Origin: Candidatus Eiseniibacteriota bacterium
GTDB lineage: Bacteria > Eisenbacteria > RBG-16-71-46 > JABDJR01
Length of the DNA stretch: 64,000 nt
Direction: 5' to 3'
Assembly: GCA_942491735.1 (NCBI GenBank)
Contig: CALOCN010000014.1
Location: forward strand, 3,147,534-3,211,533
A program made the position numbers and the translations under genes. A model generated the notes under the pieces. That model did not search any database and was not told the DNA's origin. It saw only the letters and a program-made list of their open reading frames with translations. Of this stretch, positions 3,668 to 56,774 are shown one piece after another. Numbering within the stretch: the first letter of the stretch is position 1; each line of letters starts with the position of its first letter.

Positions 3668-4736
3668 TCACCACCACGCTTGGGGCGAGGCCCCATGTCG
3701 AACCCGGTCCCGGGCTGCTGATCCCAATCGCTGCCCAAGGGCGGCATCCGCAGCCAATCTCACCATCGCGCCGGCCAGGGCGGCAACGTCTTCGGGAGGG
3801 ACCAGGAGTCCCTCCTTGCCCGAAACCAGGGTGTTCCGCAGGCTCTCCACATCCGTCGCCACCACCGGTAAGGCGTGGCTCATTGCCTCCATGACGCCAA
3901 GTGGATGACCTTCGAAGTGGGTGGCAAGGACAAAGAGGTCCGCATCCGCCAGATAGGGAGCGGGGTCGTCCACGAACCCGGTAAAGGTCACCTGATCCTC
4001 GAGTCCGAACCGAGACACCTCGGCGACAATACCGGGTCGGGTGGGGCCGTCCCCGACCAGGACAAGACGTGCCGGTGTCTCCTGGGTCAGGCGGGCAAAC
4101 GCCTGAACCAGGGTCCGATGGTCCTTCTGTGGCCTGAAGTTCGCCACGCTGACCACGGTCAGCGTCTCCCGGTCGGGCCTACGCTCTTGCGGTTCGGGGA
4201 GCCGCGCGAGCGCGTTGGGGATGAGAACAACACGCTCCGGAGAGGCCCAACCGTGGCCGGTGAGCAGGGTCTGGATCTCCTCGCTGATGGCGACATGCCG
4301 GCGAATCACACGCCCTCCCAGACGCGCAAGGAGTCGGGAGCCCTCGCGCCGGATGCCTCCCGCTGCTTGGGCGTCCTGAAGCGCACGGGGCGGATTGTGC
4401 CAGTGATAGACAACCGGAACCGGACACCCTCGGGGATCCAGGGCGAGAGCGACCGGAAGCGAGTAGCCGAAGTGCAGATGCACCACGTCGACCCCACGCA
4501 GCTTCACCAGGCGTCTCAGGGTGCGAGGGAATCCACGGGCCACGGGGTGGCGAATCGAGGGCAACACCAGGGACTCATCCGGTCCACCCATCCTCGGCAT
4601 CCAGGGGCTGGGCGTAGGGAAAGGCGATCGTCATGCGATGTCCGCGAGCACCCAGCGCCGCCTTCAGGTTCTCCATGGTGTCGATCATTCCGCCTGCAAA
4701 CGGAGGCGAGTAGTCGAGTACTTCCAGGACGTGCAT
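3668..4736 (-). CDS. family-4 glycosyltransferase, apparently frameshifted (N-terminal 54 aa in one frame, C-terminal 310 aa in another)
   Basis: ORF 4575..4817(-) encodes a GT4 N-terminus (MHVLEVLDYSPPFAGGM...ARGHRMT...DAEDGWTG*). ORF 3668..4600(-) continues in another frame (PDESLVLPSIRHP...EGHPLGVMEAMSHALPVVATDV = GT4 C-terminal EX7E region). Reading across 4580-4595 needs a 1-nt shift. Confidence 0.6.
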
Positions 4737-16286: not shown

Positions 16287-18632
16287 CTAGAACCCGAACC
16301 CTCCCGTGGGGACGTACACTTTCTTCCATGCCGTCCAGTCACTGTACTGCGTGCCGCTGGTCACGGCACGGACCTTGTACTTCCACCACTGGCCCTGGGT
16401 GGGCGTGGCGTCGTTGTAGCTCGTCGTCGACGAAGTGAACGTGGCCGGGGTTCCCGAGGGCCAGGGCTGACGCTCGATCTCGTAGTGGTCGATGGTCCCG
16501 CAGGTTGCCGTCGAGGCACTCCAGGACACGTTAACCACGCCGGGAATCGCGCCCAGGGTGAGGCCGCTGGGGCTTGTTGCGTACGGAATCGTGATCTCCA
16601 ACTCCCCGGTTCCGATCGAGAGCACACTGCTCGCGTTCTCCGCGAACACCTCGTAGTCGTGCAGGGTGGTGGAACAGGAAGAGACGGATGCATCCTGGTA
16701 GTACGTATTGGTGGTGCGGGCGAGCTCGGCCCCATCCCGGTACACGACGTATTCGTCCAGGCATCCGTTCGAGGGAACCGCGTCCCAGGTCAGCGTGACC
16801 GGGAACCCCGCCGAAGCGGTCGCGTCGGCCAGGTTGGTCGGTGCATCCACCGACGTGGCGTTCAGGTTGGTCGCCGAGGATACCCGGTCCACCTCGTCCA
16901 CCGACTTGACCTGGTAGGTCACGGTCGTGCAGCCCGCAGCCCCGGTGTCCTCATACTCCAGGGCGAGCCCGGTGTAGATGGGGGTCCCTCCCCCGTTTCG
17001 ATACAGGCGGTACTCCGTCACTTGCGAGTAGGTCCCATCCGCGGCGTTCCAGGCTATCGTGGGAGGGTTTCCCACGGTCTGAGTCACCGTGCTGGGAGGG
17101 TACGGATCGGTTCGATCGGCAACGTAGGTGCCGCCGACCTGCACCGAACCCAGCGTTGCGTGCGTAGCGGTCACGGAGAAGGTGTGCACACCCTCGGGTG
17201 CGTTTCCTCCTTCATAGACCAACGCCACGTCAACGACCTCGGTCTGCCCTCCCCCCACGCTGATGCTGGAGACCATGCTCAGCGAGAAGCCCGTCGGTGG
17301 CGTACCGGAGAGGCTGAAGAGCTCGGCTGCACCACAGCTGTTGTTGGTCAGATGGAGATCGAAGGGAACGGTCACCAGGCCGGACTTGGGTAATCCGGCG
17401 TTGACCACGCGATTCTCATCGAACGAGGCGGTTGGACCCGCCGGCGTGTAGGTGACGTCGACCGTGGCGCCGCTGGAGTCGCTGCTGACAAAGTCGATGG
17501 TGATCCCATCCAGGGTGATCGACGAGTTGGTGGCGTCGAGAATCGCCTCCAACTCGGACTCGAGGCCATCCTCGCGCTGGACGAGGACCTTCGAGAAGTA
17601 GTCCACTCCCCACACGCTGGTGTTCCCGGTCATGGAGCGGAAAAAGCTGGTGCCATCGAAGGATCCCGCCACCGGGTATCGATAGGACAGGTAGAGACTG
17701 TAAGTCCCGCCGTCGACACGCAGGACCTGGGGGTCCGTCCCCGGGGTCGCGGCCAAGGGGGCGATGGCCTGGCCCGAGACATCGCAGCTGATGACTTCCG
17801 GGCTCACCCACCCCGCCTGCACCTTGTGGTACCCGTGGAAGTGTCGATGAGGGAGGTTGTTCCCACCGAGAACCGGGGACCCCATTACGCAGGACAGGTC
17901 ACGGTAGCCTACCCCGACGTTGCCGAGGTTACCCGAGGGAACCGAAGGATCATGGTCGTCCGCATGCCGAATCAGGAAATTGTCCCGGATCCGGTGTCCC
18001 AGTTCATGGGAAAAGAATCCTGGAATATGCCAGGCATTGACCTCGATGTTCATCTCACCACCGGCCGCCTCCCCGGCCTGGCCCCCGCACTCGTTCTGGG
18101 CATTCGGGGTCACCCAGATCACCCGTTGGAACTGACCAGGAGTCTCCAGGTCGTAGCCTTCCGTCAGGGCCTGGGCGATCGCCTTTTCCTGCCAGCACGG
18201 CTTGTCGCATGGGCTGTCGTCGATTTCGCCGCAATCCTCGTTCGGGTCGAGGGTCGACATCACATAGGGGCCAAGAACCGTCCCGCTTATCTGTAGTGCG
18301 CCGTACGACATCTCCTCGAACAGCTCAGCCACCGAGAAGTCGTTCTCGGAGTCCCACAACGTTTCGAGGTAGGTGCCGGCGCTTGCGTCGAACATGATCT
18401 CGTCAATGATGGTGGCTGCCTCGTCCCCATCTGCGGCGGGAGACCAATCGGAGCCCACCGGCTCCACCAGGACCACCGCGACACTCATGGTATCGACCGA
18501 GGCGAGACCGAAGAGTCCGGGGGCGCTCCCGGGTCGGGTCGGAATTCCGTTCTCGTCGCTCTCGCCACAGGAGAGAGTCAACACGGCCAACAACAGCGTC
18601 AGGGGAATCAACAGTCGTTTGGAGTACCACAT
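16287..18632 (-). CDS. secreted zinc metallopeptidase lipoprotein (HExxH) with C-terminal Fn3/Ig-like beta-sandwich repeats
   Basis: The start is placed at MWYSKRLLIPLTLLLAVLTLSCGES (lipobox). The HELGH zinc motif is present, with repeated Thr/Ser-rich beta-rich modules (YRLYRNGG..., YVVYRDGAEL...) resembling Fn3 C-terminally. GC looks somewhat lower than in neighbouring genes. Confidence 0.75.
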   Translation of the reverse strand: MWYSKRLLIPLTLLLAVLTLSCGESDENGIPTRPGSAPGLFGLASVDTMSVAVVLVEPVGSDWSPAADGDEAATIIDEIMFDASAGTYLETLWDSENDFSVAELFEEMSYGALQISGTVLGPYVMSTLDPNEDCGEIDDSPCDKPCWQEKAIAQALTEGYDLETPGQFQRVIWVTPNAQNECGGQAGEAAGGEMNIEVNAWHIPGFFSHELGHRIRDNFLIRHADDHDPSVPSGNLGNVGVGYRDLSCVMGSPVLGGNNLPHRHFHGYHKVQAGWVSPEVISCDVSGQAIAPLAATPGTDPQVLRVDGGTYSLYLSYRYPVAGSFDGTSFFRSMTGNTSVWGVDYFSKVLVQREDGLESELEAILDATNSSITLDGITIDFVSSDSSGATVDVTYTPAGPTASFDENRVVNAGLPKSGLVTVPFDLHLTNNSCGAAELFSLSGTPPTGFSLSMVSSISVGGGQTEVVDVALVYEGGNAPEGVHTFSVTATHATLGSVQVGGTYVADRTDPYPPSTVTQTVGNPPTIAWNAADGTYSQVTEYRLYRNGGGTPIYTGLALEYEDTGAAGCTTVTYQVKSVDEVDRVSSATNLNATSVDAPTNLADATASAGFPVTLTWDAVPSNGCLDEYVVYRDGAELARTTNTYYQDASVSSCSTTLHDYEVFAENASSVLSIGTGELEITIPYATSPSGLTLGAIPGVVNVSWSASTATCGTIDHYEIERQPWPSGTPATFTSSTTSYNDATPTQGQWWKYKVRAVTSGTQYSDWTAWKKVYVPTGGFGF

Positions 18633-18955
18633 GGCAATCACCCTCTTGATTGGTAGATGGATGGCGGCCACGCGCCTTGAGTCCTGGGGTGTTTGCCTGG
18701 GTGTTGGGGACGGCAGGGCCAAGTAGCCGCCTACGATTTCGAGCACTCTCGCGCTCTCATACACACGCTAGCAAGCGACAGTATGCTCGGCTCTGCCCGG
18801 CTCGCATAGTCCCTTCGTTGTGCTCACGCATAGCGGAGTGTGTTCAGATGGACACCTCCGCCTGTGTCCGCCTGAACACGAGCGCTGGAACCCGCAACGC
18901 AAGCTCCGATCGCAACCAATTGATAGGACACTGATTAGGAAAGCAAACATCTATT

Positions 18956-18971
18956 TGGCCCGACTCCTGCT
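18956..18971 (+). promoter_or_regulatory. candidate sigma-54 (-24/-12) promoter TGGCCCGACTCCTGCT upstream of the TPR and OMP genes
   Basis: GG and GC elements sit at consensus spacing (TGGCAC-N5-TTGC), with one mismatch in each half. It lies ~105 bp upstream of the 19078 ATG, and two sigma-54 activators are encoded in the window. Confidence 0.3.
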
Positions 18972-19077
18972 TTAACCAACTCCCATAGCCCACAACGGGC
19001 CGCTTCGGAGGATCCACTCCGGAGCACACCGAACTTCGGCGACGCGTTCCGGCGCCGGGTTCACGGAGGGAGTCAAC

Positions 19078-20019
19078 ATGTCCAAGTCCACCACCCCCAT
19101 CGAAGCCAACCCCAAGACCGTACGGGCGGTGAGCCTCTCGCTCCTGCTTGGCTCCGGATTCCTCTTTGCCGGTGTCGGCGACGTCGCCGGCACCCAGGAC
19201 CCCGAGGTCCCGCGGACCTCGGACATCGTCTACGACCAGACGCAGCAGTACCCGCTCACTCTCGACGAGGCCATGGAGAGCTACCGGGAAGGCAACTACG
19301 AGGAAGCGCAGCTCTTCTTCTCCGAGTACGTCCGCCTGCGGCCCCAGGTGGCCTGGGGTCACTACATGCTCGGTCTGTGCGCCTGGAAGTCGGGTGACCT
19401 GGAGGCGGCGGAGCAGAGCCTCCTGCGTTCCGCCGAGCTGGGCCCGGAGAACCCCAAGGCCCGCATCAACCTGTGCCGCGTGCTCATGGACGCGGGACGG
19501 CACGAGGAAGCCCTGGATCACTGCCTGCTCGCCCAGGGAACCTGGCCCGAGAACGCCGAGGCGCACCGGGTGGCCGGACGCGCGCATCAGAACCTGGGAC
19601 AGCCCAACGAGGCAATCACCGCCTACCAGCACGCGCTGATCGCGGATCCCGAAGACGCCTGGTCCATGAACAACCTGGGCCTGGTCTACATCCACCAGGG
19701 TCGCTACGAGCAGGCCCTGGAACCGCTCGCCCGCGCCACCGAGCTGCGCAACGAGCCGGTCTTCTACAACAACCTCGGTATTGCTCTCGAACGAAGCGGC
19801 TATCCGGTGGCGGCGCGTGACGCCTATGCCGAAGCGGTGCGGCGCTCCGCGTCCTACACCCGGGCGGAAGACAACTTCAACCGCCTTGAGTCCATGGATG
19901 GATTGGTGTCCGGGGACCCCGGGCTCCCCATCCTCGCCGACCGCTTCGAGACGACCATCGGCACCTGGAGATCCTCCGAGGTGGCCAGTACGAACACCGC
20001 GACCGACTCCGATCGCTGA
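19078..20019 (+). CDS. TPR-repeat protein (secreted or membrane-anchored)
   Basis: 313 aa with an N-terminal hydrophobic segment and at least five TPR-like repeats (AWGHYMLGLC..., AEAHRVAGRAH..., AWSMNNLGLVY...). Confidence 0.7.
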   Translation: MSKSTTPIEANPKTVRAVSLSLLLGSGFLFAGVGDVAGTQDPEVPRTSDIVYDQTQQYPLTLDEAMESYREGNYEEAQLFFSEYVRLRPQVAWGHYMLGLCAWKSGDLEAAEQSLLRSAELGPENPKARINLCRVLMDAGRHEEALDHCLLAQGTWPENAEAHRVAGRAHQNLGQPNEAITAYQHALIADPEDAWSMNNLGLVYIHQGRYEQALEPLARATELRNEPVFYNNLGIALERSGYPVAARDAYAEAVRRSASYTRAEDNFNRLESMDGLVSGDPGLPILADRFETTIGTWRSSEVASTNTATDSDR

Positions 20020-20686: not shown

Positions 20687-23600
20687 CTATTCGCTGCCTA
20701 CCTTGACCGGTCTCGCTTCCCCCATGCTCTGCAACGCCCGCACCTGGAACCCGCCCTTGAGAATCGCCTCGATCCCGCACACCGCCGCCGCCGCCCCGGG
20801 GAGCGTGGTCACGCAGGGCACACCCTGTTCCATGGCGGCAAGGCGGATCACCCGGTCGTCGGACTTGGACTTGCGACCCAGGGGGGTGTTGAGCACGAGG
20901 TGGACCTTGCCGTCGCGGATCATGTCCACCGCGGTCGGGCTGCCCTCCCCGACCTTGTGGATGGCGGTCACCGGGACGCCGTTCATGCGCAGGAACCGCT
21001 CCGTGCCCTCGGTCGCGACCAGATCGAACTGCATTGAAACAAGCTGCTTGGCCAGGAACACCACCGCACGTTTGTCCGCGTCGCGCACGGAGAGAAACAC
21101 GGTGCCGCTGGTGGGAAGCGGCTCCCCTGCCGCGGCCTGGGCCTTGGCGTACGCTTCGCCGAAGTCCGCCCCGGTGCCCATCACTTCTCCGGTCGACTTC
21201 ATCTCCGGGCCCAGGAGGGTGTCCTCGCCGGGAAAGCGGTCGAATGGGAGCACCGGTTTCTTGACGCTGACCAGGTCGCGGCGGGACATGGTTTCGGGGG
21301 TGTCCTTCAGCGACCCACCCAGGAGCGCCTTCACGGCAAGAGGAACCAGCGGAATCCCCGCCGCCTTGCTCACGAAGGGCACGGTGCGGGACGCACGCGG
21401 GTTGGCCTCGATGATGTAGATCGCATCCCCCTTCACCGCGTACTGCACGTTGATGAGACCACACACCTTGAACGCCCGCGCCAGTTGTGCCGTCATGTCC
21501 TTGAGGAGCTGCTCGGTGGTCGCGCCAATGCTGTAGGGCGGGGTGAGGCAGGAACTGTCCCCCGAATGCACGCCGGCTTCCTCGATGTGCTCCAGCACCG
21601 CGCCCACGATGACCGTCTTGCCGTCGCTCACCGCGTCAACGTCCAGTTCCACCGCGTCCTCCAGGAACGCGTCGAGCAGCACCGGCGCCTGGGGAGAGAT
21701 GGTGATGCCCTCGGCGATGAGGAGTTCCAGTTCCGTGCGGGCATAGATCGTGCGCATCCCCTGGCCGCCCAGGACGAACGAAGGACGGACCAGCACCGGG
21801 TAGCCAATCCGCTCCGCCTCCTGGATGAGGTCTTCGCGCCGGGTGGCGATGCGGCTCCTGGGCTGGGTGAGCCCCAGGCGCTGGATGAGCGCCCGGAAGG
21901 TGTCCCGGTTCTCGGCGTCGTCGATGGCCTGGGGCTGGGTTCCCAGGATGGGGATACGGGCCCGCTCGATGGGCCGGGCCAGCTTGAGCGGGGTCTGTCC
22001 GCCGAACTGCAACACCACCCCGCCCGGTCGCTCCTTCTCCAGCACGTTGAGGACATGTTCCTCGGTGAGCGGCTCGAAATAGAGCCGGTCGCTGACGTCG
22101 TAATCGGTGGAGACGGTCTCGGGGTTGGAGTTGATGAAGATGACGGGACGCCCGGAGGCCCGGATGGACTGGGCCGCCTGGACACAGCAGTAGTCGAACT
22201 CCACCCCCTGGCCAATGCGGTTGGGGCCGGAGCCCAGGACCGCCACCGCGCTCTCGCCCAGGGGTTCCCCCTCGTCCTCGGACTCGTAGGTGGAGTAGAA
22301 GTACGGGGTCTCGGCCGGGAACTCCGCGGCGCAGGTGTCCACCGCCTTGAAGGTGGGGCGCACGTCGAGGCGGAGCCGCAGGGCGCGAACGTCCGGTTCG
22401 GGAAGGTCGATGAGCCCGGCAATCCACGCGTCGGTGAGCCCCTGGCGCTTGGCCCGCCGCATGAGCGTCGCCGCGGCTTCCGTGTCGTTGGCCTTGAGCA
22501 GCTTGGGCAAGCGAGTGCGGATGGCCTGTTCCGTGGCGATGATCTCGGCCATGCGATCCAGGAACCACAGGTCCACCCCGGTGAGGTCCGCCAGTTGCTG
22601 TGGGGTGTGTCCGCGGCGCAGGGCGTGGAGAAGCAGGAACGGTCGTCGCCAGGTGGGCCGGGCCAGGTTCGCGTCATCCAGGGCACCCCGAGTGAACGCG
22701 GTGCCGCTGATCAAGGTGTCCACGTTGTCGATCTCGAGGCTCACCAGGGCCTTGATATAGGCCTCGGTGAAGGTACGACCAATGGCCATGACCTCCCCCA
22801 CCGACTTCATGCGCGTGGTCAGAGTGTCGTCGGCGAGAGGGAACTTGTTGAAGTTCCAGCGCGGGACCTTCACCACCACATAGTCCAGGCTGGGCTCGAA
22901 GCAGGCGGGGGTGACCCGGGTGATGTCGTTGGGAATGGCATCGAGCGTCTCGCCGCTGGCCAGACGGGCTGCGATCTTGGCGATGGGAAACCCGGTCGCC
23001 TTGCTGGCCAGGGCGCTGGAGCGGGAGACCCGCGGGTTCATCTCGATGATGACGATGCGCCCGTCCCTGGGGTTGAGGCCGAACTGGACGTTGGAGCCGC
23101 CGGTGTCGACCCCTACCGCGCGCAGGGTTTCCAGCGAGTAGTCGCGCAGGCGTTGGTACTCGCGGTCCGTGAGGGTCTGGATAGGGGCCACGGTGACCGA
23201 GTCCCCGGTGTGTACCCCCATGGGGTCCAGGTTCTCGATCCCGCACACGATGACCGCGTTGTCCGCGCCGTCCCGCATGACCTCGAGCTCGAACTCCTTC
23301 CAGCCGGTGAGGTCCTCCTCGATGAGCACGGTGGAAACCGGCGAGAGACGCAGGGCATCCTTGGTGATGCGGGTCAGTTCGTCGTGGTTGGTGGCGCGTC
23401 CGCCCCCCGCTCCGCCCAGGGTGAAGCTGGGACGGAGGATGACCGGGAAGCCGATCTCGTTGGCGAGTCGGGTTGCTTCTTCCAGGGAACGGGCGAACCC
23501 GGATTCGGGGAGAGGAATGCCGGCCTCGCGCATGGTGTCGCGGAAACGATCCCGGTCTTCGGCCTTCTGGATCGCTTCCGGCGTGGCGCCGATCATCTTG

Positions 23601-23920
23601 ACGTTGAGTTTGTCGAGGGTCCCCTGCTCGGCGAGGGTGATGGCCACGTTGAGCGCGGTCTGCCCACCGAGGGTAGGGAGCAGAAGGTCGATGTTCTCCT
23701 GCTCGAGGATCTTCGCCACCACGTCCGGGGTGATGGGCTCGATGTAGGTCCGGTCCGCCACCTCCGGGTCGGTCATGATGGTGGCCGGGTTGGAATTGAC
23801 GAGAACCACGCGGAAGCCCCGCTCGCGGAGCACGCGACAAGCCTGGGTGCCGGAGTAGTCGAACTCGCAGGCCTGGCCAATGACGATCGGGCCGGAGCCG
23901 AGGAGGAGAATGGATGTCAT
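20687..23920 (-). CDS. carB: carbamoyl-phosphate synthase large subunit
   Basis: 1077 aa with two ATP-grasp halves, a CPSase oligomerisation domain and a C-terminal MGS-like domain. It begins [24 protein letters not shown]. Confidence 0.95.
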
Positions 23921-24783
23921 GGGGACTCAAGCCCCTTTCTCAGAAGACTCATGTCGGCGGTGCGGTGAATCATATGCCTCGACGAGGCAATGACCTTCAA
24001 TGCGTAGTCTAGGCCGAAACACCGAGCGAACGCTTCCCCAGTATCACTCACGGCAACACAAGCTACATAAGCAGTTTCCGCTGCCAGCTCCGGATTCGGA
24101 AGCAAGTTGACCACTCCTGACTGAGGAGACTGCCTTATTGAGTAGCCCTCCCTCATCCCAAAGGCCGTCCGATGGAGGATCGCCGAAGCAATTGGGCCTA
24201 GCTTCCTAAACGTCATGCTCCGTAGCGGCGCCTCATCTGGATAGGACTTGTCCATTTCATCAACGAGGTTTGCAATCTCGTGCGCGTAGTACTTGGGTTT
24301 GAGGTCATTGGCCTGGAGCCACTTGCTTGCTGCCGCACCCTTTTGCTTCAACTCGCTCAGAACAGCTTTGGGGAACTGTCTATAGCCGCCCTCCGCCGCG
24401 AGCTTGTTGAGGCTTTGGGCCAAGTTGAGCGTCTGGACTGCCCCAGAGCAAGAGTATCTCTCAACTTCTTCGTCTCCACACTTACCTAAGTGCCAAGCGT
24501 GGACACTCCCCTCAAACAGGCTACGCAGTAGGCCATGGGCATCGGCAAACCGTCCGGATGACTGGAGCAATCGGATAGAGTCAAACGTAAAATACTGCGA
24601 TACGAACAACTCTCGAACGAGGTTCTGCCTTAACGTCGCAGAGCCAATTGCCAGATCCACCTGTGAAGACCACCCCTCCATGGCCTCCTTTAGCCAATCG
24701 CATACACGCACCCAAGGTTTGAACTCTTCTGCCGTTTCTCTCCAACGCTTCTCGGTGATCACCCGATAGTCTCTAGTCAACAT
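23917..24783 (-). CDS. hypothetical protein of unknown family, encoded in a visibly lower-GC (~50%) segment between carA and carB
   Basis: The long minus-strand ORF starts at [12 protein letters not shown] (288 aa). Its start overlaps the carA 3' end by 11 bp, and its TGA overlaps the carB ATG (ATGA). The composition differs sharply from flanking genes, and I recognise no known domain. Confidence 0.65.
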
Positions 24784-25972
24784 TGAGCTCGATTCCAATG
24801 ATCCCCCGCGCATCCATCGGCCCAGCACACGCCTCCGGATGAAACTGCACCGCCTGAATCCGCAGCTCCGGCACCGCAAACCCTTCGCAGGTCTCATCGT
24901 TCAAGCTCACGTGCGTCAACTGCGGCGCCGTCTGCACATCCCCGCCCAACGCAGCGCCCAACGAGTCCCCGTCCACGGCAAAGCCGTGGTTCTGGCTCGT
25001 CACCATGACCCTTCCTGTGCGCAGGTCCTTCACCGGGTGGTTGATCCCGTGGTGGCCGAACTTCATCTTGTAGGTCTTGGCCCCCAGCGCCAGCGCCAAC
25101 ACCTGATGGCCCAGGCAGATTCCCAGGATGGGCAGCTTGCCGAACAGCCCCGGCAGGGTCCGGATCAGCGTCGCCACGTCCACGGGGTCGCCCGGTCCGT
25201 TGGAGAGCAACAACCCATCCGGCTCCCCGGCCAGGATCTCCTCGGCGCTCGCGTTCGGGGTCACCAGACGCACCTTGGCCCCACGCCGCCGCAACGCCTG
25301 ATCGATCCCCTCCTTCATGCCGCAGTGCACCACCACAATGCGCTTGCCTGCAAGCGATGCCCCATCCGCCAGAGGAAACTCGTCGGCCAGCTCGGGTGGC
25401 GCGGCGTTCACCACCGCGTCCAACCCTTCAAACCCGGTCATGCTCTCCGTAGGCGCCACCTCATCCACCAGGTTTCGCCCGCTCAACCCCGGAAACGCAC
25501 GCACCCGTGCCAAGGCAACTTCGGCATCCACGCTCTGCGGCACCATCACCCCGCGCAATGCTCCGGCGGTACGGATGTGGCGGGTCAATGCCCGCGTGTC
25601 GACCTCGGTCAAACAGGGAATCCCATGCTCCCGGAGAAACTCCGGCAACGAACCCTCGCTGCGCCAGTTGCTGGGCGACTCGCACAGGTCCCGGCACACG
25701 ATCCCGGCCAACGCCGGTTCCGGCGCCTCGTCGTCCTGACGGTTGGCCCCCACGTTACCGATGTGCGGCGCGGTGAAGGTGACGATCTGCCCGCGGTACG
25801 ACGGGTCGGTGATCACTTCCTGGTAACCGGTCATCCCGGTCTGGAAAACCACCTCGCCGATGCCCGGTTCCTCGTTGCGCTGGGTCAAGCCTTCCGGGAC
25901 CGCCCCGGCCAGGCGCCCCGCGAATCGGCGACCGTCTTCCAGGATGAGATACCCGGCGTTCGTCCCGCTCAT
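24773..25972 (-). CDS. carA: carbamoyl-phosphate synthase small (glutamine amidotransferase) subunit
   Basis: 399 aa with a CPSase small-chain N-domain and a GATase catalytic triad region (GICLGHQ ... HGFAV). Confidence 0.95.
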   Translation of the reverse strand: MSGTNAGYLILEDGRRFAGRLAGAVPEGLTQRNEEPGIGEVVFQTGMTGYQEVITDPSYRGQIVTFTAPHIGNVGANRQDDEAPEPALAGIVCRDLCESPSNWRSEGSLPEFLREHGIPCLTEVDTRALTRHIRTAGALRGVMVPQSVDAEVALARVRAFPGLSGRNLVDEVAPTESMTGFEGLDAVVNAAPPELADEFPLADGASLAGKRIVVVHCGMKEGIDQALRRRGAKVRLVTPNASAEEILAGEPDGLLLSNGPGDPVDVATLIRTLPGLFGKLPILGICLGHQVLALALGAKTYKMKFGHHGINHPVKDLRTGRVMVTSQNHGFAVDGDSLGAALGGDVQTAPQLTHVSLNDETCEGFAVPELRIQAVQFHPEACAGPMDARGIIGIELNVD

Positions 25973-26256
25973 CGGCTCACCGGCTCCGTCTCGAACCGCT
26001 CGGCAAAGCGTTCAATCAACGGCTTCCCCCGCTCGATCGCTTCCCGGACCGAGGCCAGCCCCAACGACTCGGTGTGGTGCTCCCGGCTCTCCCAGACCTC
26101 GGTGATCCAGATCCCCTTGGGGTCTCCAGGATCCCGCGCGATCACGTAGCTCTTGCAACCGGGCATCACGAGCGTTCCCTCGACCAGAATCCGGATCAGC
26201 GTGTCCCGGTCGCCGTCGCCGCCGGTGCAGATCAAACGGCTGATCAATCCGTACAT
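25969..26256 (-). CDS. ABM-domain (antibiotic-biosynthesis-monooxygenase-like) small protein
   Basis: 95 aa. PGCKSYVIARDPGDPKGIWITEVWESREHHTESL matches the ABM ferredoxin-like fold pattern. Its stop overlaps the carA start. Confidence 0.6.
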   Translation of the reverse strand: MYGLISRLICTGGDGDRDTLIRILVEGTLVMPGCKSYVIARDPGDPKGIWITEVWESREHHTESLGLASVREAIERGKPLIERFAERFETEPVSR

Positions 26257-26383: not shown

Positions 26384-26815
26384 TCACTCCTTCACCCTTC
26401 CTCCCCACAGAAACGCCACCAGCCACACCGCCGCGGTCGCCATCAGCTGATAGAACGGCATGAACACCACCGCCACCCCCGACTGGGCATCCGGCGCAAT
26501 CACGAACGCACTCCAATACACGAACAAACCGGCCAGGGCGATCAGCACCGTCCCCACGTAGATCACCCGCACCCGCCGCGCGTTGAGCTTCGCCCAGCGC
26601 GACATGCGAAACAGCACCGTGTAGGGCAACACGCCCCAGGCCATGAACACGACCAGGGTCACCCAGCGCCCCTCGCTCGCGTTCTCGAGCCCTGCCCACA
26701 GGAGCAGCGCCAGCGTCCCGATCATGGACACCCCCAACACCACCCGCGTCCAGCGCTGCACCTTCTCGGGGCCGCTGAGCATCGCCGTCCGTGCGCTTCC
26801 GATCACCGGTTCCAA
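26384..26815 (-). CDS. small integral membrane protein (4 predicted TM helices), unknown function
   Basis: 143 aa and hydrophobic throughout. It is embedded between pyrC and the ABM/carA genes. Confidence 0.55.
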   Translation of the reverse strand: MEPVIGSARTAMLSGPEKVQRWTRVVLGVSMIGTLALLLWAGLENASEGRWVTLVVFMAWGVLPYTVLFRMSRWAKLNARRVRVIYVGTVLIALAGLFVYWSAFVIAPDAQSGVAVVFMPFYQLMATAAVWLVAFLWGGRVKE

Positions 26816-26843: not shown

Positions 26844-28208
26844 TCACGAACCCACCGTTTCCATCCGCCCCTTGGGCGTCACGCTCCCGTGGGCAAACAC
26901 CATGCGCCCGGCCGACACCGTGGCCACCGGCAGCCCGGTCAGGGTCTGCCCCACCCACGGACAATTCCGCGACCGGCTCACGAAGTCCCGCGCCCCCACT
27001 TCCCAGGTCGCTTCAAGGTCCAGCACCGTCACATCCGCCGGCCCCCGGTCCCGCAACACCCCGTGGTCCAGATCCAACACTCCCGCGGCGCCGGTCGACA
27101 TCGCCTTGACCAGCGTGGCCAGATCCACCTCGCCGGTCTTCACCAAACCCGTGTGCAACGCCGCGAACGCGGTCTCGGTTCCGATCACCCCGTTGGGGGC
27201 CTCGTCAAACGTGACGTCCTTCGAGATCTCGTTGTGCGGCGCATGGTCGGTGGCGATCGAGGCAATCGTCCCGTCCCTCAGCCCCGCCACCAATGCCTCG
27301 CGATCGCTCGCTTCACGCAACGGCGGCGCCATCTTGAAGTGCGGGTCGTAGGTGGCAAGATCCGCGTCGGTGAACACCAGATGATGCGGCGTCACCTCAC
27401 CGGTGACCCGCAGCCCCTTGGCCTGGGCCTCACGGATCATCTCCACCGAACGCCGACAGGACAGATGCGCCACGTGCAACCGCCCCCCGGTGTGCTCGAC
27501 CAAGCAGATGTCCCGCGCCACGATTACCTCTTCCGTCGCCCGCGGAATGGGCCGGAGTCCCATCTTGGTCGACATGAACCCTTCGTGGGCCACGCCGGTC
27601 CCCTTGAGACACAGGTCCTCGGCATGACAGACAATCACCTTGTCCAGCATCCCGGCGTACTCCAGGGCCCGGCGCATGAGGTTGGCGTCCATGATGGTGT
27701 GCCCGTCATCCGAGAACGCCACCGCCCCCGCCGCGGCGAGGTCGAACATCTCGGTCAGCTCCCCACCGGCCAGCCCCTTGCTCACCGCGGCGATCGGATA
27801 CACCCGGGCCAGCCCCGCTTCCCGCGCCCGCTCCAGGACAAACCGCACCGACTGCGGATCGTCGATGGGCGGCTGGGTGTTGGCCATGCTGGCCACCGCC
27901 ACGAACCCGCCCCGAGCCGCGGCCGCGGTGCCGCTGGCAATGGTCTCCGAGTCCTCGGACCCCGGCTCGCGCAGGTGCACATGGATGTCCACGAACCCCG
28001 GCGCGGCCACCCGACCCGGCAGGTCAAACACCTGGGCGCTCTCGGGGATGTCCCCTTCGCTGATGAAGTGCAACACGCCGTCCTTGATCAGCAGGTCCTG
28101 CCGCGCCCGCACGCCGGTCTCCGGATCGAGTACGTCGATTCCGGTCAACGCGAACGGACGATCCCTGGAGTCCCGAACCGCCACCCGCTGTGCTTCCCAT
28201 CGTTCCAT
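26844..28208 (-). CDS. pyrC: dihydroorotase
   Basis: 454 aa with the amidohydrolase metal-binding motifs DIHVHLREPG and ...DHAPH.... Confidence 0.9.
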   Translation of the reverse strand: MERWEAQRVAVRDSRDRPFALTGIDVLDPETGVRARQDLLIKDGVLHFISEGDIPESAQVFDLPGRVAAPGFVDIHVHLREPGSEDSETIASGTAAAARGGFVAVASMANTQPPIDDPQSVRFVLERAREAGLARVYPIAAVSKGLAGGELTEMFDLAAAGAVAFSDDGHTIMDANLMRRALEYAGMLDKVIVCHAEDLCLKGTGVAHEGFMSTKMGLRPIPRATEEVIVARDICLVEHTGGRLHVAHLSCRRSVEMIREAQAKGLRVTGEVTPHHLVFTDADLATYDPHFKMAPPLREASDREALVAGLRDGTIASIATDHAPHNEISKDVTFDEAPNGVIGTETAFAALHTGLVKTGEVDLATLVKAMSTGAAGVLDLDHGVLRDRGPADVTVLDLEATWEVGARDFVSRSRNCPWVGQTLTGLPVATVSAGRMVFAHGSVTPKGRMETVGS

Positions 28209-28265
28209 CTTGCTCTCCTCGTTCGGGCGTGCGCCGTGCGCCGCGCCGTCAAAGTGTTCGGGAAT

Positions 28266-29997
<1,732 letters not shown>

Positions 29998-31069: not shown

Positions 31070-33544
31070 GTGGTATATTATTGGGAACCCGTTGGGATGC
31101 AACACGTTGACGAGGCACCAATGCACCACTTGGCACTGGCTCACGTCGTTCGGGAAACCGGGTCCCCTTACGAGGCTCCCGCGCGGCCGGGTGCGACCGG
31201 GGCAGGTCAAGGCCGACGATCGTCGATGCTCGCGGGCGCGGTGCGAGCCGCACACGGGCCCACCGGGGCGCCGCAGGAAGACCCCACCTATCTCCTCGCC
31301 GCACGTCTCTTCATTGCCACCAAGGCGATGGCCGCACAAGTGTTCGCTCTCGAGCGCACCGAGGCCGCCCATGTCCACGACGCACTCACCGAGCGACGCC
31401 ACCAAGCGGCGGGATTCTCCGCCTTCGGCGACTACGCCCGCGAGGTGCTCGGGATCTCACCCCGGAGCGCCCGACGACGAGTTGCTCTGGAGCGAGCACT
31501 TCGCGCAAGTCCGAAGCTCGAAGAGCGAGTGCTCGACGGGCGCATCGGCTCCCTGGCCGCGGCGCGACTACGCCCGGTTCTGGGAACCACGGAAGAGGCC
31601 TCATGGTTGGATCAGGCTCAAGCGCTAACCCTTCGGGAACTGGACGCCGCGTTGCGCTCGAGACTCTTGGACGAGTCGAACCCGCCAAGGAAGGCGGAAG
31701 GCCCAGGCCCGGAATCGGTTGCGACCTCGGATGTGACCTCGGCTTCGACCACGAGCCCGGAGACACCCAGGGTCGCCCCGGGCCCCGAAACAGCAGAACG
31801 GGATGTGCAGGAGAGCCTCGACATCGGGCGCAGAATCAGTTTCTCCGCGCCGGCCCGGGTCGCTGCGTTGTGGGACAACGCACTCGACCTCGCACGTCGC
31901 ACCCTCGGCTTCGACGCTCCGGTGCACGAGTGCGTGGCCGCCATGCTCAGCGAGGCCGCTTCCAGCTATCCGGCGCCTTTGTCTTCCGGGCTGGGTCTCA
32001 GTGAGAACAGGGTAAACACAGCAAGCGACAACGAACCGGATGGGACTCCGGATGACTCGAACTCCTTTGGCCGCACAACACCCGGGGCTTCTGCGGCTCG
32101 CCCGAGTGGGATCCTCCCACTGCACCCGGGACACCTTCAGGCCAAGGCGGTCAACCGCCTGCTTCGCGAGGTGGCGCGGGAGTTGGACATGCCAACCCCC
32201 GGGATCCGCGCAGGTGCGACCCCACGGACAGACCCACGCGCGGCAGCCTCAGCAGCACCGGCATCCGGTCTAGGCCCCAGCCCCCCTGCCGCCGACGCCC
32301 CAGTATCAACGGCCCATGGCGACCACACCGGCGGAGTCTTCACCGCGATCCGTGCCCAGCGACATCGCCTCCGGTTTCTCCTGGGGCGATGCCTCCAGGA
32401 GATCGACCGCATGGATGCCGCGCCGCTCCTTGGGTCCAGCGACATCATGACCCTGGCCACGCGCGTCCTCGGCGTGGGCGAGCGATCCATTCGCAACCTC
32501 CTGCGGGAATGCGATCTGTTGGAATCGGAACCCACCCTGCACGACGCCGTCGTGTCCGGTCGGATCGCCCGAGGCCAGGCCACCCTCCTGGGTCGCGTCG
32601 GTGCGGGATCCGGACTTGCGGATCACGTCGACCGAGCCACCTCGGTCACCCACCGCCAGCTTCAGCGGGAGGTCCGCGTCATCGAACGCTTGCAAGCCCT
32701 CGCGCCGCGGCTTGCCGTTCGCCATCCGGGACCCCTCCGGGCATCAAGCCTCGTGGAGGATCTGCGGGACCACCTGATCGCCTTGGGTCGTCCGGGATCC
32801 ACCCTCGACCAGTATCTCGCCGATCACGGCGTCACGCCTCCGGATGCGACCGCCGCAAGTCACGCGGATTCCACGGCCCCGGGCGGTCCGGATCCCGCCG
32901 AGGATCCCAGCACCCTGCGTTGCATCGAGTTGCTCCTGGACCTGGCGGCGTTCGGGTACGAGCCCGGGGAAGACGATCAGCACCGGCAGAATCACCACCC
33001 CGACCACCCCGATGCAGGAAACGGCTCGGACGACGACCGCTCTCCCCCCGCCTCCAGCCCCGCCTCATGGAAAACGTTGGCCTCCCCGGGCGACCGGACA
33101 CGCATCGGTTTCTGGGCCCCCACCGAGTTGGCCACGCAATGGGAGCAAACCCTCGGTGCCATCCGGGCCCAAGCCGGGCCGCTCCCGGCATGGGCAGCGG
33201 TAACACTGCTCCTGAACGACGTTCTAACCGCCTGGGCCAACGTGGATCCGGCCCGGCGCCCCGCCCAGTGGCGCACCCTGGAGCGGGACGACTACCGCTG
33301 CCAGGTCCCTGGCTGCTCGGCGCGTCGGCACTTGGAGACCCACCACATCGTCTTCCGATCGCAAGGTGGCTCGAACGCGCCGGACAACAAGGTAACCCTG
33401 TGTCACGGACATCACCGCCGGGGCGTGCATCGGGGATCGGTTCGCATCACAGGCGCCGCACCGCACGGTCTCGACTGGAGACTGGGGGACCCAAGCCGGG
33501 TACACCACGTTCTCCGCTACCGGGGCCAAAGGAGGCTCCCATGA
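31070..33544 (+). CDS. DUF222-domain + HNH endonuclease protein (REP13E12-like), unusually long (824 aa) with Pro/Ala/Ser-rich linker
   Basis: The N-terminal region (FGDYAREVLGISPRSARRRVALERALRASPKLEERVLDGRIGSLAAARL) fits DUF222. The C-terminal CQVPGCSARRHLETHHIVFRSQGGSNAPDNKVTLCHGHHRRGVH is a canonical HNH motif. The true start may be at MQHVDE (31091) or MHHLAL (31115). A TATATT box lies just upstream. Confidence 0.7.
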   Translation: MVYYWEPVGMQHVDEAPMHHLALAHVVRETGSPYEAPARPGATGAGQGRRSSMLAGAVRAAHGPTGAPQEDPTYLLAARLFIATKAMAAQVFALERTEAAHVHDALTERRHQAAGFSAFGDYAREVLGISPRSARRRVALERALRASPKLEERVLDGRIGSLAAARLRPVLGTTEEASWLDQAQALTLRELDAALRSRLLDESNPPRKAEGPGPESVATSDVTSASTTSPETPRVAPGPETAERDVQESLDIGRRISFSAPARVAALWDNALDLARRTLGFDAPVHECVAAMLSEAASSYPAPLSSGLGLSENRVNTASDNEPDGTPDDSNSFGRTTPGASAARPSGILPLHPGHLQAKAVNRLLREVARELDMPTPGIRAGATPRTDPRAAASAAPASGLGPSPPAADAPVSTAHGDHTGGVFTAIRAQRHRLRFLLGRCLQEIDRMDAAPLLGSSDIMTLATRVLGVGERSIRNLLRECDLLESEPTLHDAVVSGRIARGQATLLGRVGAGSGLADHVDRATSVTHRQLQREVRVIERLQALAPRLAVRHPGPLRASSLVEDLRDHLIALGRPGSTLDQYLADHGVTPPDATAASHADSTAPGGPDPAEDPSTLRCIELLLDLAAFGYEPGEDDQHRQNHHPDHPDAGNGSDDDRSPPASSPASWKTLASPGDRTRIGFWAPTELATQWEQTLGAIRAQAGPLPAWAAVTLLLNDVLTAWANVDPARRPAQWRTLERDDYRCQVPGCSARRHLETHHIVFRSQGGSNAPDNKVTLCHGHHRRGVHRGSVRITGAAPHGLDWRLGDPSRVHHVLRYRGQRRLP

Positions 33545-55988: not shown

Positions 55989-56354
55989 CTACCCTGGGAA
56001 CGTCGCGAACCGCGTCATTGTCGCGATCCAAAGCAGGACGAAGCGTCTCCAGGCATCCCGGGGGCTCCGCTCCGGGCGATCCTGGCGCTCGAACTCGAGA
56101 TCGCCTTCGGCGTCGATGTCGAACGAGTTGGGATCGGCTTCGGAGGTTCCGCCCCCATCCCCGCTATCCCCTGGAGGGGCACCGGGGCCGGGAGGGCCAC
56201 CTCGATCCGACTGACTTCCATCCTTGTCCAGCACGCCACCGCCGAAGGTATCGTCGGTGGTCTGGGCTGAGACCTGTGCGGGCAGCGACAGCACCAGCGC
56301 GAGCACCACGCCCAGAAGAGCTGTCCATCCCATCCATCCGAGTTTCCGTTTCAT
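55989..56354 (-). CDS. small secreted acidic Gly/Pro-rich protein, unknown function
   Basis: The start is placed at MKRKLGWMGWTALLGVVLALVLSLPAQVSA (signal peptide). The region after it is low-complexity. The gene ends 33 bp upstream of the activator ATG. Confidence 0.45.
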   Translation of the reverse strand: MKRKLGWMGWTALLGVVLALVLSLPAQVSAQTTDDTFGGGVLDKDGSQSDRGGPPGPGAPPGDSGDGGGTSEADPNSFDIDAEGDLEFERQDRPERSPRDAWRRFVLLWIATMTRFATFPG

Positions 56355-56405
56355 TTCACCTGTCCTCGCTTCCCAAAAGACTGGAAAACCATGCATAGGT
56401 ATAAG

Positions 56406-56420
56406 GCACATACCATGCCA
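56406..56420 (-). promoter_or_regulatory. candidate sigma-54 promoter TGGCATGGTATGTGC upstream of the small secreted gene and activator operon
   Basis: On the minus strand the GG (-24) and GC (-12) elements sit at consensus spacing, with one mismatch in each half. It lies ~50 bp upstream of the 56354 ATG. Confidence 0.35.
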
Positions 56421-56600
56421 GGGTCGCCGCCTTCCTGGAAACAGGGCGAACTCCGTAACAAACCATGTCGCTTGAGGTTAGAAACGGGCTCCTGTCCGTG
56501 CCCGAGGGGGGTTGAGAACAGTATACTCGCCAAACTGGAACCTGGCTACCCAGCCCCAAAGGCTCACGCCTTAACTCATTACAATTGAACAATTTAGAAG

Positions 56601-56617
56601 TGGGTACCAAATACCCA
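56601..56617. promoter_or_regulatory. 17-bp palindrome TGGGTACCAAATACCCA (candidate activator UAS/operator)
   Basis: 6-bp perfect arms (TGGGTA/TACCCA) sit ~190 bp upstream of the candidate sigma-54 promoter, in the divergent region shared with the GGDEF gene. Confidence 0.3.
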
Positions 56618-56774
56618 CCCCGATCCGGTCCCGGTTATAGGCGGATACCCCGTGACCACCCTGCCGCCGGTTGACGTAACCTGTTGACTGTGAGACAATT
56701 GGGCCGTTCATCTCCCACCCTGAACCGGTCCCGCCGGGATTCCGGCCCTCAATCGGAGGCGCCCACGGCGGCAA

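What the first reader, a model, noticed from the sequence alone, without database searches (positions are those of the whole stretch)
23917..24783. Compositionally foreign gene spliced precisely between carA and carB
A 288-aa ORF lies in a segment of ~50% GC (eye estimate), against ~70% for both flanks. It sits exactly between the two carbamoyl-phosphate synthase subunit genes, which are normally adjacent. Its start overlaps the carA 3' end by 11 bp and its TGA overlaps the carB ATG, so it would be co-translated with an essential operon. I recognise no domain; the protein has no signal peptide or TM segment, so it is probably cytoplasmic. A horizontally acquired gene hitch-hiking inside carAB could be a regulator, a toxin or defense factor, or a moonlighting CPSase accessory protein. 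It is the strongest candidate in the window for something undescribed.
Basis: seen in the sequence. Interest (0 to 1): 0.72.

Follow-up and report, generated by a model that had tools for sequence, protein, structure and literature searches.

The report
Foreign DUF5677 gene inside carAB operon
A single gene of clearly foreign composition, a divergent member of the uncharacterised DUF5677 family whose relatives sit in prophages and defence islands, has been wedged between the two carbamoyl-phosphate synthase genes and wired into their translation; it is a real curiosity of gene transfer, not a new kind of system.

Summary
On the minus strand, carA (24773-25972), a 288-aa ORF "X" (23917-24783) and carB (20687-23920) are chained by an 11-nt overlap and an ATGA overlap. 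X has 54% GC and GC3 0.61; its neighbours have about 67% GC and GC3 0.84-0.90. This is the lowest-GC stretch of the 64-kb window.

About ten relatives, all at 28% identity or less, were found in 1.8 billion representative proteins. They lie in a prophage accessory region next to an AbiJ-like gene, beside a helicase/methylase cluster with an IS21-type element, near a HEPN_AbiU2 gene, or as tandem pairs behind NYN or HNH nuclease genes. None lies near carAB.

In the seven closest lineages, four have carA and carB adjacent and three carry an unrelated DUF4760 gene at the junction.

Best reading: a recently acquired accessory gene, probably conflict- or defence-related and HEPN-like, expressed by riding the pyr/car operon. 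It is not a CPSase subunit. Its biochemical function is untested. Interest is moderate to low: a new member of a known kind in an unusual place.

The parts
23917..24783 (-). ORF X: 288 aa, DUF5677-family protein, predicted all-alpha with a HEPN-like helical core. It retains the family-invariant residues F67, L73, L86, R87, E91, S200 and H204.
23921..24805 (.). Low-GC foreign segment, about 0.88 kb, with approximate boundaries. It is essentially the ORF alone, plus about 20 nt that now encode the last residues of carA.
   Evidence: the 30-nt GC trace drops at about 24805 and recovers at about 23920; GC3 is 0.61 against 0.88.
24773..24783 (-). 11-nt overlap ATGTTGACTAG, containing the start codon of X and the last codons plus the TAG stop of carA.
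   Evidence: read directly from the sequence.
23917..23920 (-). ATGA overlap: the TGA stop of X and the ATG start of carB. An AAAGGGG Shine-Dalgarno-like stretch for carB lies inside the 3' end of X.
   Evidence: read directly from the sequence.
24773..25972 (-). carA, the CPSase small (glutaminase) subunit. The conserved core runs to ...FHPEACAGPMDARG, and the last roughly 9 codons have low-GC codon usage.
   Evidence: CPSase_sm_chain and GATase domains. (C-termini of relatives).
20687..23920 (-). carB, the CPSase large subunit. It is full length, with N-terminus [16 protein letters not shown] as in relatives.
26844..29781 (-). Upstream part of the same operon: a pyrR-like gene (29209-29781), pyrB (28266-29225) and pyrC (26844-28208). 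The order pyrR-pyrB-pyrC-carA-carB is conserved in seven relatives.

Best explanation
X is a real gene acquired horizontally and fairly recently. It encodes a very divergent member of the DUF5677 family. It landed as a bare ORF in the short carA-carB junction of a conserved pyrR-pyrB-pyrC-carA-carB operon, in a high-GC bacterium related to Candidatus Eisenbacteria.

X has no promoter or terminator of its own. It is most likely transcribed with the operon and translated by coupling: ribosomes finishing carA restart at its overlapping ATG, and ribosomes finishing X restart at the overlapping carB ATG. Only insertions that kept carB expressed could survive, which explains the 'surgical' junctions.

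The protein is a soluble, all-alpha protein whose core resembles the HEPN four-helix bundle. It has an invariant Arg/Glu/Ser/His set. Relatives are rare, AT-rich relative to their hosts, and found in prophage, defence-island and nuclease-linked contexts. I therefore infer that X belongs to the conflict/defence gene pool: a HEPN-like RNA-targeting or nuclease-associated effector, or its regulator. It is not part of carbamoyl-phosphate synthesis.

Shown: the anatomy, the foreign composition, family membership, absence from relatives' junctions, and the contexts of relatives.
Inferred: co-translation, HEPN homology, and any defence or RNase activity.

The confidence of 0.55 is for the whole statement. 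It is about 0.9 for 'horizontally acquired DUF5677 gene riding carAB' and about 0.4 for the conflict/defence, HEPN-like functional class.
For: Anatomy and composition.

Expression signals: no sigma-70-like promoter or terminator-like site lies inside 23.9-24.8 kb.

Family: DUF5677 scores above the Pfam cut-off for X and for all 10 relatives. Only 6 relatives appeared in 1.84e9 representative proteins, and about 10 in total. X keeps every invariant column.

Contexts of relatives:
- A Paenibacillus prophage accessory region next to an AbiJ_NTD4 gene.
- A Riflebacteria locus beside an Eco57I-type methylase, a DEAD/MZB helicase, a UvrD helicase and an IS21-type element.
- Next to an integrase fragment.
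- Near a HEPN_AbiU2 gene.
- NYN or HNH_2 nuclease followed by two tandem DUF5677 paralogues.
- The family genes are AT-richer than their own loci in most cases.

Literature: DUF5677 is reported as enriched next to serine recombinases that mark defence islands (PMC12632615).

Junctions in relatives: carA and carB are adjacent in L002, L003, L080 and L092. An unrelated DUF4760 gene occupies the junction in L089-L091.

Neighbourhood: no integrase or transposase among the likely genes checked in roughly 7-37 kb of the window, and nothing at all at the junction itself.
Against: - No experiment or expression data exist.
- X lacks a strict Rx4-6H motif. It has R87 and H95 (Rx7H) with Ser at the position where 6 of 11 relatives have His.
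- There is no sequence-level link to any HEPN Pfam family or to the neighbouring AbiU2 and AbiJ proteins.
- Foldseek against PDB and BFVD finds nothing significant.
- No PADLOC model matches.
- The one DUF5677 ORF tested in PMC12632615 was not among the five of nine ORFs that protected against phage.
- There are no hits in phage or plasmid collections or in IMG/VR.
- X is solo, with no partner or antitoxin gene. That is unusual for a toxic HEPN RNase.
- The Shine-Dalgarno sequence before X is weak.
Confidence: 0.55

Rival explanations
1. Neutral passenger. X is a recently captured gene with no selected function in this host. It persists only because deleting or disrupting it would have polar effects on the essential carB, whose ribosome-binding stretch and start context now lie in X's 3' end.
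For: - It occurs in a single genome, and no close relative exists anywhere.
- Its composition is not ameliorated.
- X is the most divergent member of its subfamily, at 58-97 bits to all others.
- It has Ser in place of the His that many relatives carry.
- carB's start overlaps X's stop.
Against: - The 288-codon frame is intact.
- All seven family-invariant residues are retained.
- The full-length N- and C-termini match relatives.
- With a single sequence, selection cannot be measured either way.
Confidence: 0.25
2. Orphan immunity or antitoxin-like protein. In relatives, DUF5677 paralogues follow small NYN or HNH nuclease genes, as immunity or antitoxin genes follow toxins. A solo copy such as X could neutralise an incoming or resident nuclease instead of being an effector itself.
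For: - Nuclease plus DUF5677-A plus DUF5677-B modules occur in L088 and L170, and a tandem pair occurs in L169.
- The proteins are all-alpha, sporadic and AT-rich.
- X is solo, and constitutive co-expression with an essential operon appears to be tolerated.
Against: - At 250-300 aa the proteins are larger than typical immunity proteins.
- An invariant Arg/Glu/Ser/His constellation suggests catalysis or specific ligand binding.
- Solo members in prophage and defence-island settings look more like effectors.
- No interaction data exist.
Confidence: 0.15
3. CPSase accessory or regulatory protein. X binds CarA/CarB or tunes carbamoyl-phosphate synthesis, and that is why it sits between the subunit genes.
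For: Only its position and its translational coupling with carA and carB. A sister lineage also keeps a small gene (DUF4760) at the same junction with host-like GC.
Against: - None of about 10 relatives is near carAB or any pyrimidine or arginine gene.
- The four closest lineages with an empty junction manage without it.
- The composition is foreign.
- The DUF4760 gene is unrelated (hhalign probability 0.1%).
Confidence: 0.05
4. Selfish homing-type element. This would be a free-standing nuclease gene that targets the conserved carA-carB junction, as mobE sits between nrdA and nrdB in T-even phages.
For: - The insertion is precise, ORF-only, and lies between two highly conserved genes.
- The junction is variably occupied in the clade.
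- A distant DUF5677 gene is likewise embedded in a hyp operon directly after hypD.
Against: - No known homing-endonuclease fold or motif is present.
- The insertion occurs once only.
- Relatives are not at conserved junctions, apart from the distant P0011.
- The mobE comparison is from my own recollection and was not tested here.
Confidence: 0.03
5. Assembly chimera or contamination: foreign reads were mis-joined into the carAB locus.
For: The composition break is sharp and the gene is unique.
Against: - Both junctions are in-frame functional overlaps that supply the carA stop and the carB start.
- An independent short-read assembly contig spans ABM-carA-X-carB identically.
- The source contig is 3.36 Mb.
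Confidence: 0.02

Closest known systems
Pfam DUF5677 (PF18928), an uncharacterised family
   Same: X scores 38.3 bits against a gathering cut-off of 27.1 over residues 55-178. All ten relatives also match. X shares the invariant motifs F-T-F..S-I..L, D-x-F-x-L-L-R-x-L-F/Y-E and S-E-Y/F-L-H.
   Different: X is the most divergent member found, at 28% identity or less. It has far higher GC than any relative, and it is the only one found inside a carAB operon.
HEPN superfamily, e.g. AF0298 (2HSB), sacsin HEPN (3O10), TT1696 (1UFB), Csm6, HEPN/MNT toxins
   Different: X itself has Rx7H, with Ser at the canonical His position. No HEPN profile matches by sequence. The protein is about twice the size of a minimal HEPN domain, with extra helices and a beta-hairpin. 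Generic four-helix bundles score almost as well.
AbiV (Lactococcus), a single-protein HEPN RNase abortive-infection toxin (PDB 9BJ7; bioRxiv 10.1101/2024.05.05.592566)
   Same: Both are stand-alone, roughly 200-290-aa, all-alpha proteins with a four-helix core plus a beta-hairpin. They share the same set of nearest structural neighbours (2HSB, 1UFB, 3O10, 3JYY). The catalytic R and H are not strictly conserved across either family. Both have mobile or defence contexts.
   Different: There is no sequence similarity and no HEPN_AbiV Pfam hit. The direct Foldseek match is weak (TM 0.41 on the target, probability 0.30). No abiV2-like RNA antitoxin locus is evident. X is embedded in a biosynthetic operon.
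Variable carA-carB intervening regions, e.g. the large variable intergenic sequence in Neisseria (Lawson et al. 1995, recalled from my own knowledge and not checked here), and the guaA or DUF4760 insertions seen here
   Same: The carA-carB junction tolerates inserted DNA or genes while both subunits stay co-expressed.
   Different: Here the insert is a single compositionally foreign ORF fused by overlapping start and stop codons. It is neither repeat-rich non-coding DNA nor a host-like metabolic gene.

Membership tests
Pfam DUF5677 (PF18928) | Whole-protein score at or above the curated gathering threshold | tested here: met
   38.3 bits against 27.1, E 1.9e-9, residues 55-178 on profile positions 3-132 of 166. 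The collection's precomputed annotation agrees.
Pfam DUF5677 (PF18928) | Conserved family motifs retained | tested here: met
   X has all invariant columns of the 11-sequence alignment (F67, L73, L86, R87, E91, S200, H204).
HEPN superfamily | Four-helix up-down bundle core superposable on solved HEPN domains | tested here: inconclusive
HEPN superfamily | Rx4-6H catalytic motif | tested here: not met
   X reads R87-SLFEGSV-H95 (Rx7H), with Ser93 where 6 of 11 relatives have His (Rx5H). The Arg is invariant in the family and the His is not.
HEPN superfamily | Profile-level sequence relationship to a HEPN family | tested here: not met
   no HEPN Pfam family appears at E <= 10 for any of the 10 members; hhalign against the neighbouring AbiU2-HEPN and AbiJ proteins gives probability below 1%; no PDB HEPN is found by profile.
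HEPN superfamily | Homodimer with a composite active site; RNase activity | not testable with these tools
No biochemistry was possible.
AbiV abortive-infection family | Match to the HEPN_AbiV profile or to the AbiV structure | tested here: not met
   no HEPN_AbiV hit; 9bj7_N is only rank 50, with E 1.3, probability 0.30, and TM 0.24 (query) and 0.41 (target).
Catalogued anti-phage defence systems (PADLOC-DB 2.0) | Match to any component model | tested here: not met
   no family matches X. Relatives give only chance-level hits (E about 0.03).
Genomic island or prophage | Integrase or transposase, a tRNA or attachment site, or a multi-gene foreign block | tested here: not met
   the foreign segment is about 0.88 kb, a single ORF. 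The neighbours examined are housekeeping genes (pyr, car, glyQS, TPR, kinase). The only tRNA is 21 kb away.
Integron-type gene cassette | attC recombination site 3' of a promoterless ORF | tested here: not met
   X's stop codon overlaps the carB ATG, so there is no 3' non-coding DNA. Only a weak 16-nt, 75% inverted repeat lies at the borders, within native carA and carB codons. No dedicated attC model was run.
CPSase subunit or accessory protein | Conserved linkage with carA/carB across genomes | tested here: not met
   no X-like sequence appears in 160 carA loci; no relative is near car or pyr genes.

The most novel reading that the evidence does not exclude
DUF5677 is an unrecognised branch of HEPN-like conflict proteins. 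It occurs solo, or as A/B heterodimeric pairs behind NYN or HNH nucleases. X would then be an active effector that has become 'addicted' into an essential operon. Its expression would be tied to PyrR-controlled pyrimidine status, and its removal would be blocked because carB's translation start lies within it. The carA-carB junction in this clade would also be a recurrent landing site for such genes, with DUF4760 in a sister lineage.
Probability: 0.12. Interest if true: 0.7.

Novelty: new member of a known kind. Interest (0 to 1): 0.38.

Why it matters
This is a clean natural example of how a promoterless foreign ORF can be domesticated at the junction of two translationally coupled essential genes. 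It also gives the uncharacterised DUF5677 family a first structural hypothesis (a HEPN-like core with an invariant R/E/S/H set) and a set of genomic associations: prophage accessory regions, defence clusters and nuclease-led tandem pairs. Both can be tested directly. If the family proves to be an RNase-type defence or toxin module, X would show such a module running from a core biosynthetic operon. If not, it remains a well-documented hitch-hiker of local interest only.

Tried and rejected
- Domain libraries. NCBIfam, PADLOC and PHROGs gave nothing for X beyond chance.
- PDB by sequence, with the single protein and with a profile, gave chance hits only.
- Structure prediction. Single-sequence AlphaFold was useless (pLDDT 41). 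The second run with 10 sequences worked.
- Fold searches. Foldseek against PDB and BFVD found no significant match. The afdb50 library was unavailable.
- Word-indexed homologue searches with the protein and with two alignments found only about 5 sequences each. One call failed on an E-value limit.
- Contig scans. An IMG/VR scan with the family motif gave no confirmed relative. With the X protein it found no relative.
- tblastn of X and of P0008 against phage and plasmid collections gave no match. The DUF4760 protein against phages gave no match.
- hhalign of the family against DUF4760, AbiU2-HEPN and AbiJ showed no relationship.
- Repeat search at the insert borders found no target-site duplication. 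Only a weak inverted repeat (23910-23925 / 24802-24817, 75%) lies inside native carA and carB codons, and I judge it to be chance.
- I rejected the longer 326-aa reading of the ORF (ATG at 24897). It would overlap carA by 125 nt, and relatives' N-termini align with the ATG at 24783.
- A literature search for a citable source on Neisseria carA-carB spacers did not find one.

Full report
**1. The observation**

All genes concerned are on the minus strand:
- carA runs 24773-25972 (399 aa).
- A 288-aa ORF, here called X, runs 23917-24783.
- carB runs 20687-23920 (1077 aa).

X's ATG lies inside the last codons of carA. The shared 11 nt are ATGTTGACTAG. X's TGA shares ATGA with the carB start codon. 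Pfam confirms the identities of carA, carB, pyrC, pyrB and a PyrR-like PRTase upstream.

- 200-nt windows give 0.51-0.56 GC across 23.9-24.8 kb, against 0.64-0.70 on both sides.
- GC3 is 0.612. 288-codon windows of the seven neighbouring genes give 0.88 +/- 0.018, so X is about 15 SD lower.
- A CAI-like index built on the neighbours is 0.32, against 0.68-0.77 for the neighbours themselves.
- The segment contains the lowest-GC 500-nt window of the whole 64 kb.

The low-GC tract is only about 0.88 kb (about 23921-24805), which is essentially the ORF alone. There is no TM segment. No sigma-70-like promoter or terminator-like site lies inside the tract. An independent Logan assembly of run ERR9670067 reproduces the ABM-carA-X-carB junctions exactly. 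An assembly chimera is therefore very unlikely.

**2. What the protein is**

Nothing matches in NCBIfam, PADLOC, PHROGs or the PDB by sequence.

The subfamily is extremely sparse:
- An exhaustive phmmer search of 1.84 billion representative proteins found six relatives at 23-28% identity.
- Profile searches added four more.
- X is the most divergent of them, at 58-97 bits to all others.

The alignment has seven invariant columns, and X keeps all of them: F67, L73, L86, R87, E91, S200 and H204. X's N-terminus aligns with the relatives' starts. That supports the ATG at 24783 over the upstream ATG at 24897.

**3. Structure**

With the 10-sequence alignment, AlphaFold gives a confident model (pLDDT 84, pTM 0.83). 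It consists of about twelve helices plus one beta-hairpin.

Evidence that the core is HEPN-like:

Evidence against a firm HEPN assignment:
- Foldseek finds nothing significant in PDB or BFVD.
- No HEPN profile matches any family member.
- hhalign against the neighbouring AbiU2 and AbiJ proteins is negative.
- The family consensus R-x-L-F/Y-E-x-H fits Rx5H in 6 of 11 members, but X has Ser93 with His95, which is Rx7H.

I therefore call the core HEPN-like. Membership in the HEPN superfamily is not established.

**4. Genomic company of the relatives**

| Relative | Context |
|---|---|
| P0008 | Paenibacillus prophage, between the lysis cassette and the repressor genes, next to an AbiJ_NTD4 gene |
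| P0006 | Riflebacteria, after an Eco57I-type methylase, a DEAD/MZB helicase and a UvrD helicase, beside an IS21-type element |
| P0002 | Near an integrase fragment |
| P0005 | Three genes from a HEPN_AbiU2 gene |
| P0010 + P0004 | Tandem DUF5677 pair behind an NYN nuclease gene |
| P0007 | Second gene of a tandem DUF5677 pair behind an HNH_2 gene; its partner is confirmed by hhalign at probability 100% |
| P0003 | Followed by another DUF5677 paralogue |
| P0011 | Distant 404-aa member wedged into a hyp operon immediately after hypD |

In most cases the DUF5677 gene is clearly AT-richer than its own locus. None is near car or pyr genes.

One preprint found DUF5677 enriched next to serine recombinases that mark defence islands. 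The one ORF tested there was not among those that protected E. faecalis against six phages.

The association with mobile and conflict loci is therefore consistent. It remains circumstantial.

**5. The junction in related genomes**

The nearest carA homologues (62-67% identity) are Candidatus Eisenbacteria MAGs and soil metagenome contigs. The order pyrR-pyrB-pyrC-carA-carB is conserved in them.

- carA and carB abut in L002, L003, L080 and L092.
- L089, L090 and L091 carry a different gene at the junction. It is 169-170 aa, has a hydrophobic N-terminal stretch that looks like a membrane helix, and matches DUF4760. L091's GC profile shows no dip there (the other two were not profiled). It is unrelated to X.
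- No X-like sequence occurs in any of about 160 carA loci.

That condition is not met.

'Normally adjacent' does overstate the case. Among the sampled loci where both genes were found, 30 are adjacent and 44 are separated by 300 nt or more. The separating genes include guaA in Syntrophales, a 291-aa coiled-coil protein in Nitrospinota-like contigs, and a radical-SAM-like gene in L015. In many other loci carB is simply not nearby.

The likely genes I checked in roughly 7-37 kb of the window are housekeeping genes, with no integrase or transposase among them. Nothing else is inserted at the junction itself, so this is a lone-gene insertion and not an island.

**6. How it most likely works**

Shown: a foreign, intact DUF5677 ORF fused by overlapping start and stop codons into an otherwise conserved operon.

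Inferred:
- X is transcribed from the operon promoter. It would presumably follow PyrR-type pyrimidine control, given the PyrR-like gene upstream.
- X is translated by termination-reinitiation coupling from carA, and carB is coupled in turn to X.
- The 3' end of X now supplies carB's Shine-Dalgarno-like AAAGGGG stretch and its start context.
- The surgical look of the junctions is best explained by survivorship. Only insertions that preserve carB translation are viable. Once fixed, the gene is hard to lose.

For the protein itself, I commit to a conflict/defence-pool function built on a HEPN-like core. That means an RNA-targeting effector or a nuclease-associated partner. My probability is about 0.4 for that functional class. 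It is about 0.9 for the underlying claim that this is a horizontally acquired DUF5677 gene riding carAB.

Rivals, in order of weight:
- a functionless passenger locked in place;
- an orphan immunity or antitoxin-like protein, suggested by the nuclease-led modules;
- a CPSase accessory protein, for which no support was found;
- a homing-type selfish gene;
- an assembly artefact.

**7. Novelty and verdict**

X belongs to a catalogued, uncharacterised family, so it is a new and very divergent member of a known kind in an unusual location. The HEPN-like fold, the nuclease-led tandem modules and the repeated occupation of the carA-carB junction in this clade are useful leads. None is yet a discovery of a new mechanism. 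Interest is about 0.38.

Noticed in passing
L089:1375-1887, L090:4170-4679, L091 approx. 4190-4694: In three soil-metagenome relatives (carA 65-67% identical), the carA-carB junction holds a different small gene. It is a 169-170-aa DUF4760 protein (E 2.7e-14) with a hydrophobic N-terminal stretch that looks like a membrane helix. L091's GC profile shows no dip there. It is unrelated to X. The junction therefore seems to be repeatedly occupied in this clade.
   Followed up: partly
L088:112-2490; L170:6383-8668; L169:105-1287: A recurrent module: a small stand-alone nuclease gene (NYN in L088, HNH_2 in L170) followed by two tandem, divergent DUF5677 paralogues (type A, then type B). It matches no PADLOC model and may be an undescribed conflict system.
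   Followed up: partly
L171:8001-9215: A distant 404-aa DUF5677 protein (P0011) starts one base after hypD, inside a hypC-hypD-...-hypE-hypA hydrogenase-maturation operon. This is a second case of a DUF5677 gene embedded in a conserved operon.
   Followed up: no
window 25969-26256 and 26384-26815 (minus strand): A 95-aa ABM-domain gene and a 143-aa gene with no Pfam match lie between pyrC and carA. The latter's sequence looks hydrophobic, like a membrane protein, but this was not computed. Neither has a counterpart in any of the seven closest relatives, where pyrC is usually followed directly by carA. Both have host-like GC3 (0.85-0.90), so they look like older additions to the same operon.
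   Followed up: partly
L014, L028, L101 and other Syntrophales/Smithella loci; L031, L125; L015: Other lineages also keep genes between carA and carB. Syntrophales have guaA (GMP synthase, 509 aa; identified from its sequence by eye, no Pfam run). Nitrospinota-like contigs have a conserved 291-aa coiled-coil protein. L015 has a 222-aa radical-SAM-like protein.
   Followed up: partly
L082, L084, L085, L087, L170 (DUF5677 genes against their loci): DUF5677 genes are markedly AT-richer than their surrounding DNA in most hosts, for example 0.38 against 0.51 and 0.33 against 0.46. Family members therefore look horizontally mobile almost everywhere they occur.
   Followed up: yes
window 23910-23925 and 24802-24817: An imperfect 16-nt inverted repeat (75% complementary) brackets the low-GC segment. 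Both arms lie in native carA and carB codons. I judge it to be chance, but it was not tested statistically.
   Followed up: partly
window 18501-19000 and 56251-56750: These are two further mild low-GC spots (0.59 and 0.57), probably intergenic. They were not examined.
   Followed up: no
window 16287-18764 (-), 31070-33544 (+), 18844-19695 (-): These are large ORFs (825, 824 and 283 aa) with no Pfam match at E <= 1e-5. At least the first has gene-like GC3 (0.80).
   Followed up: no
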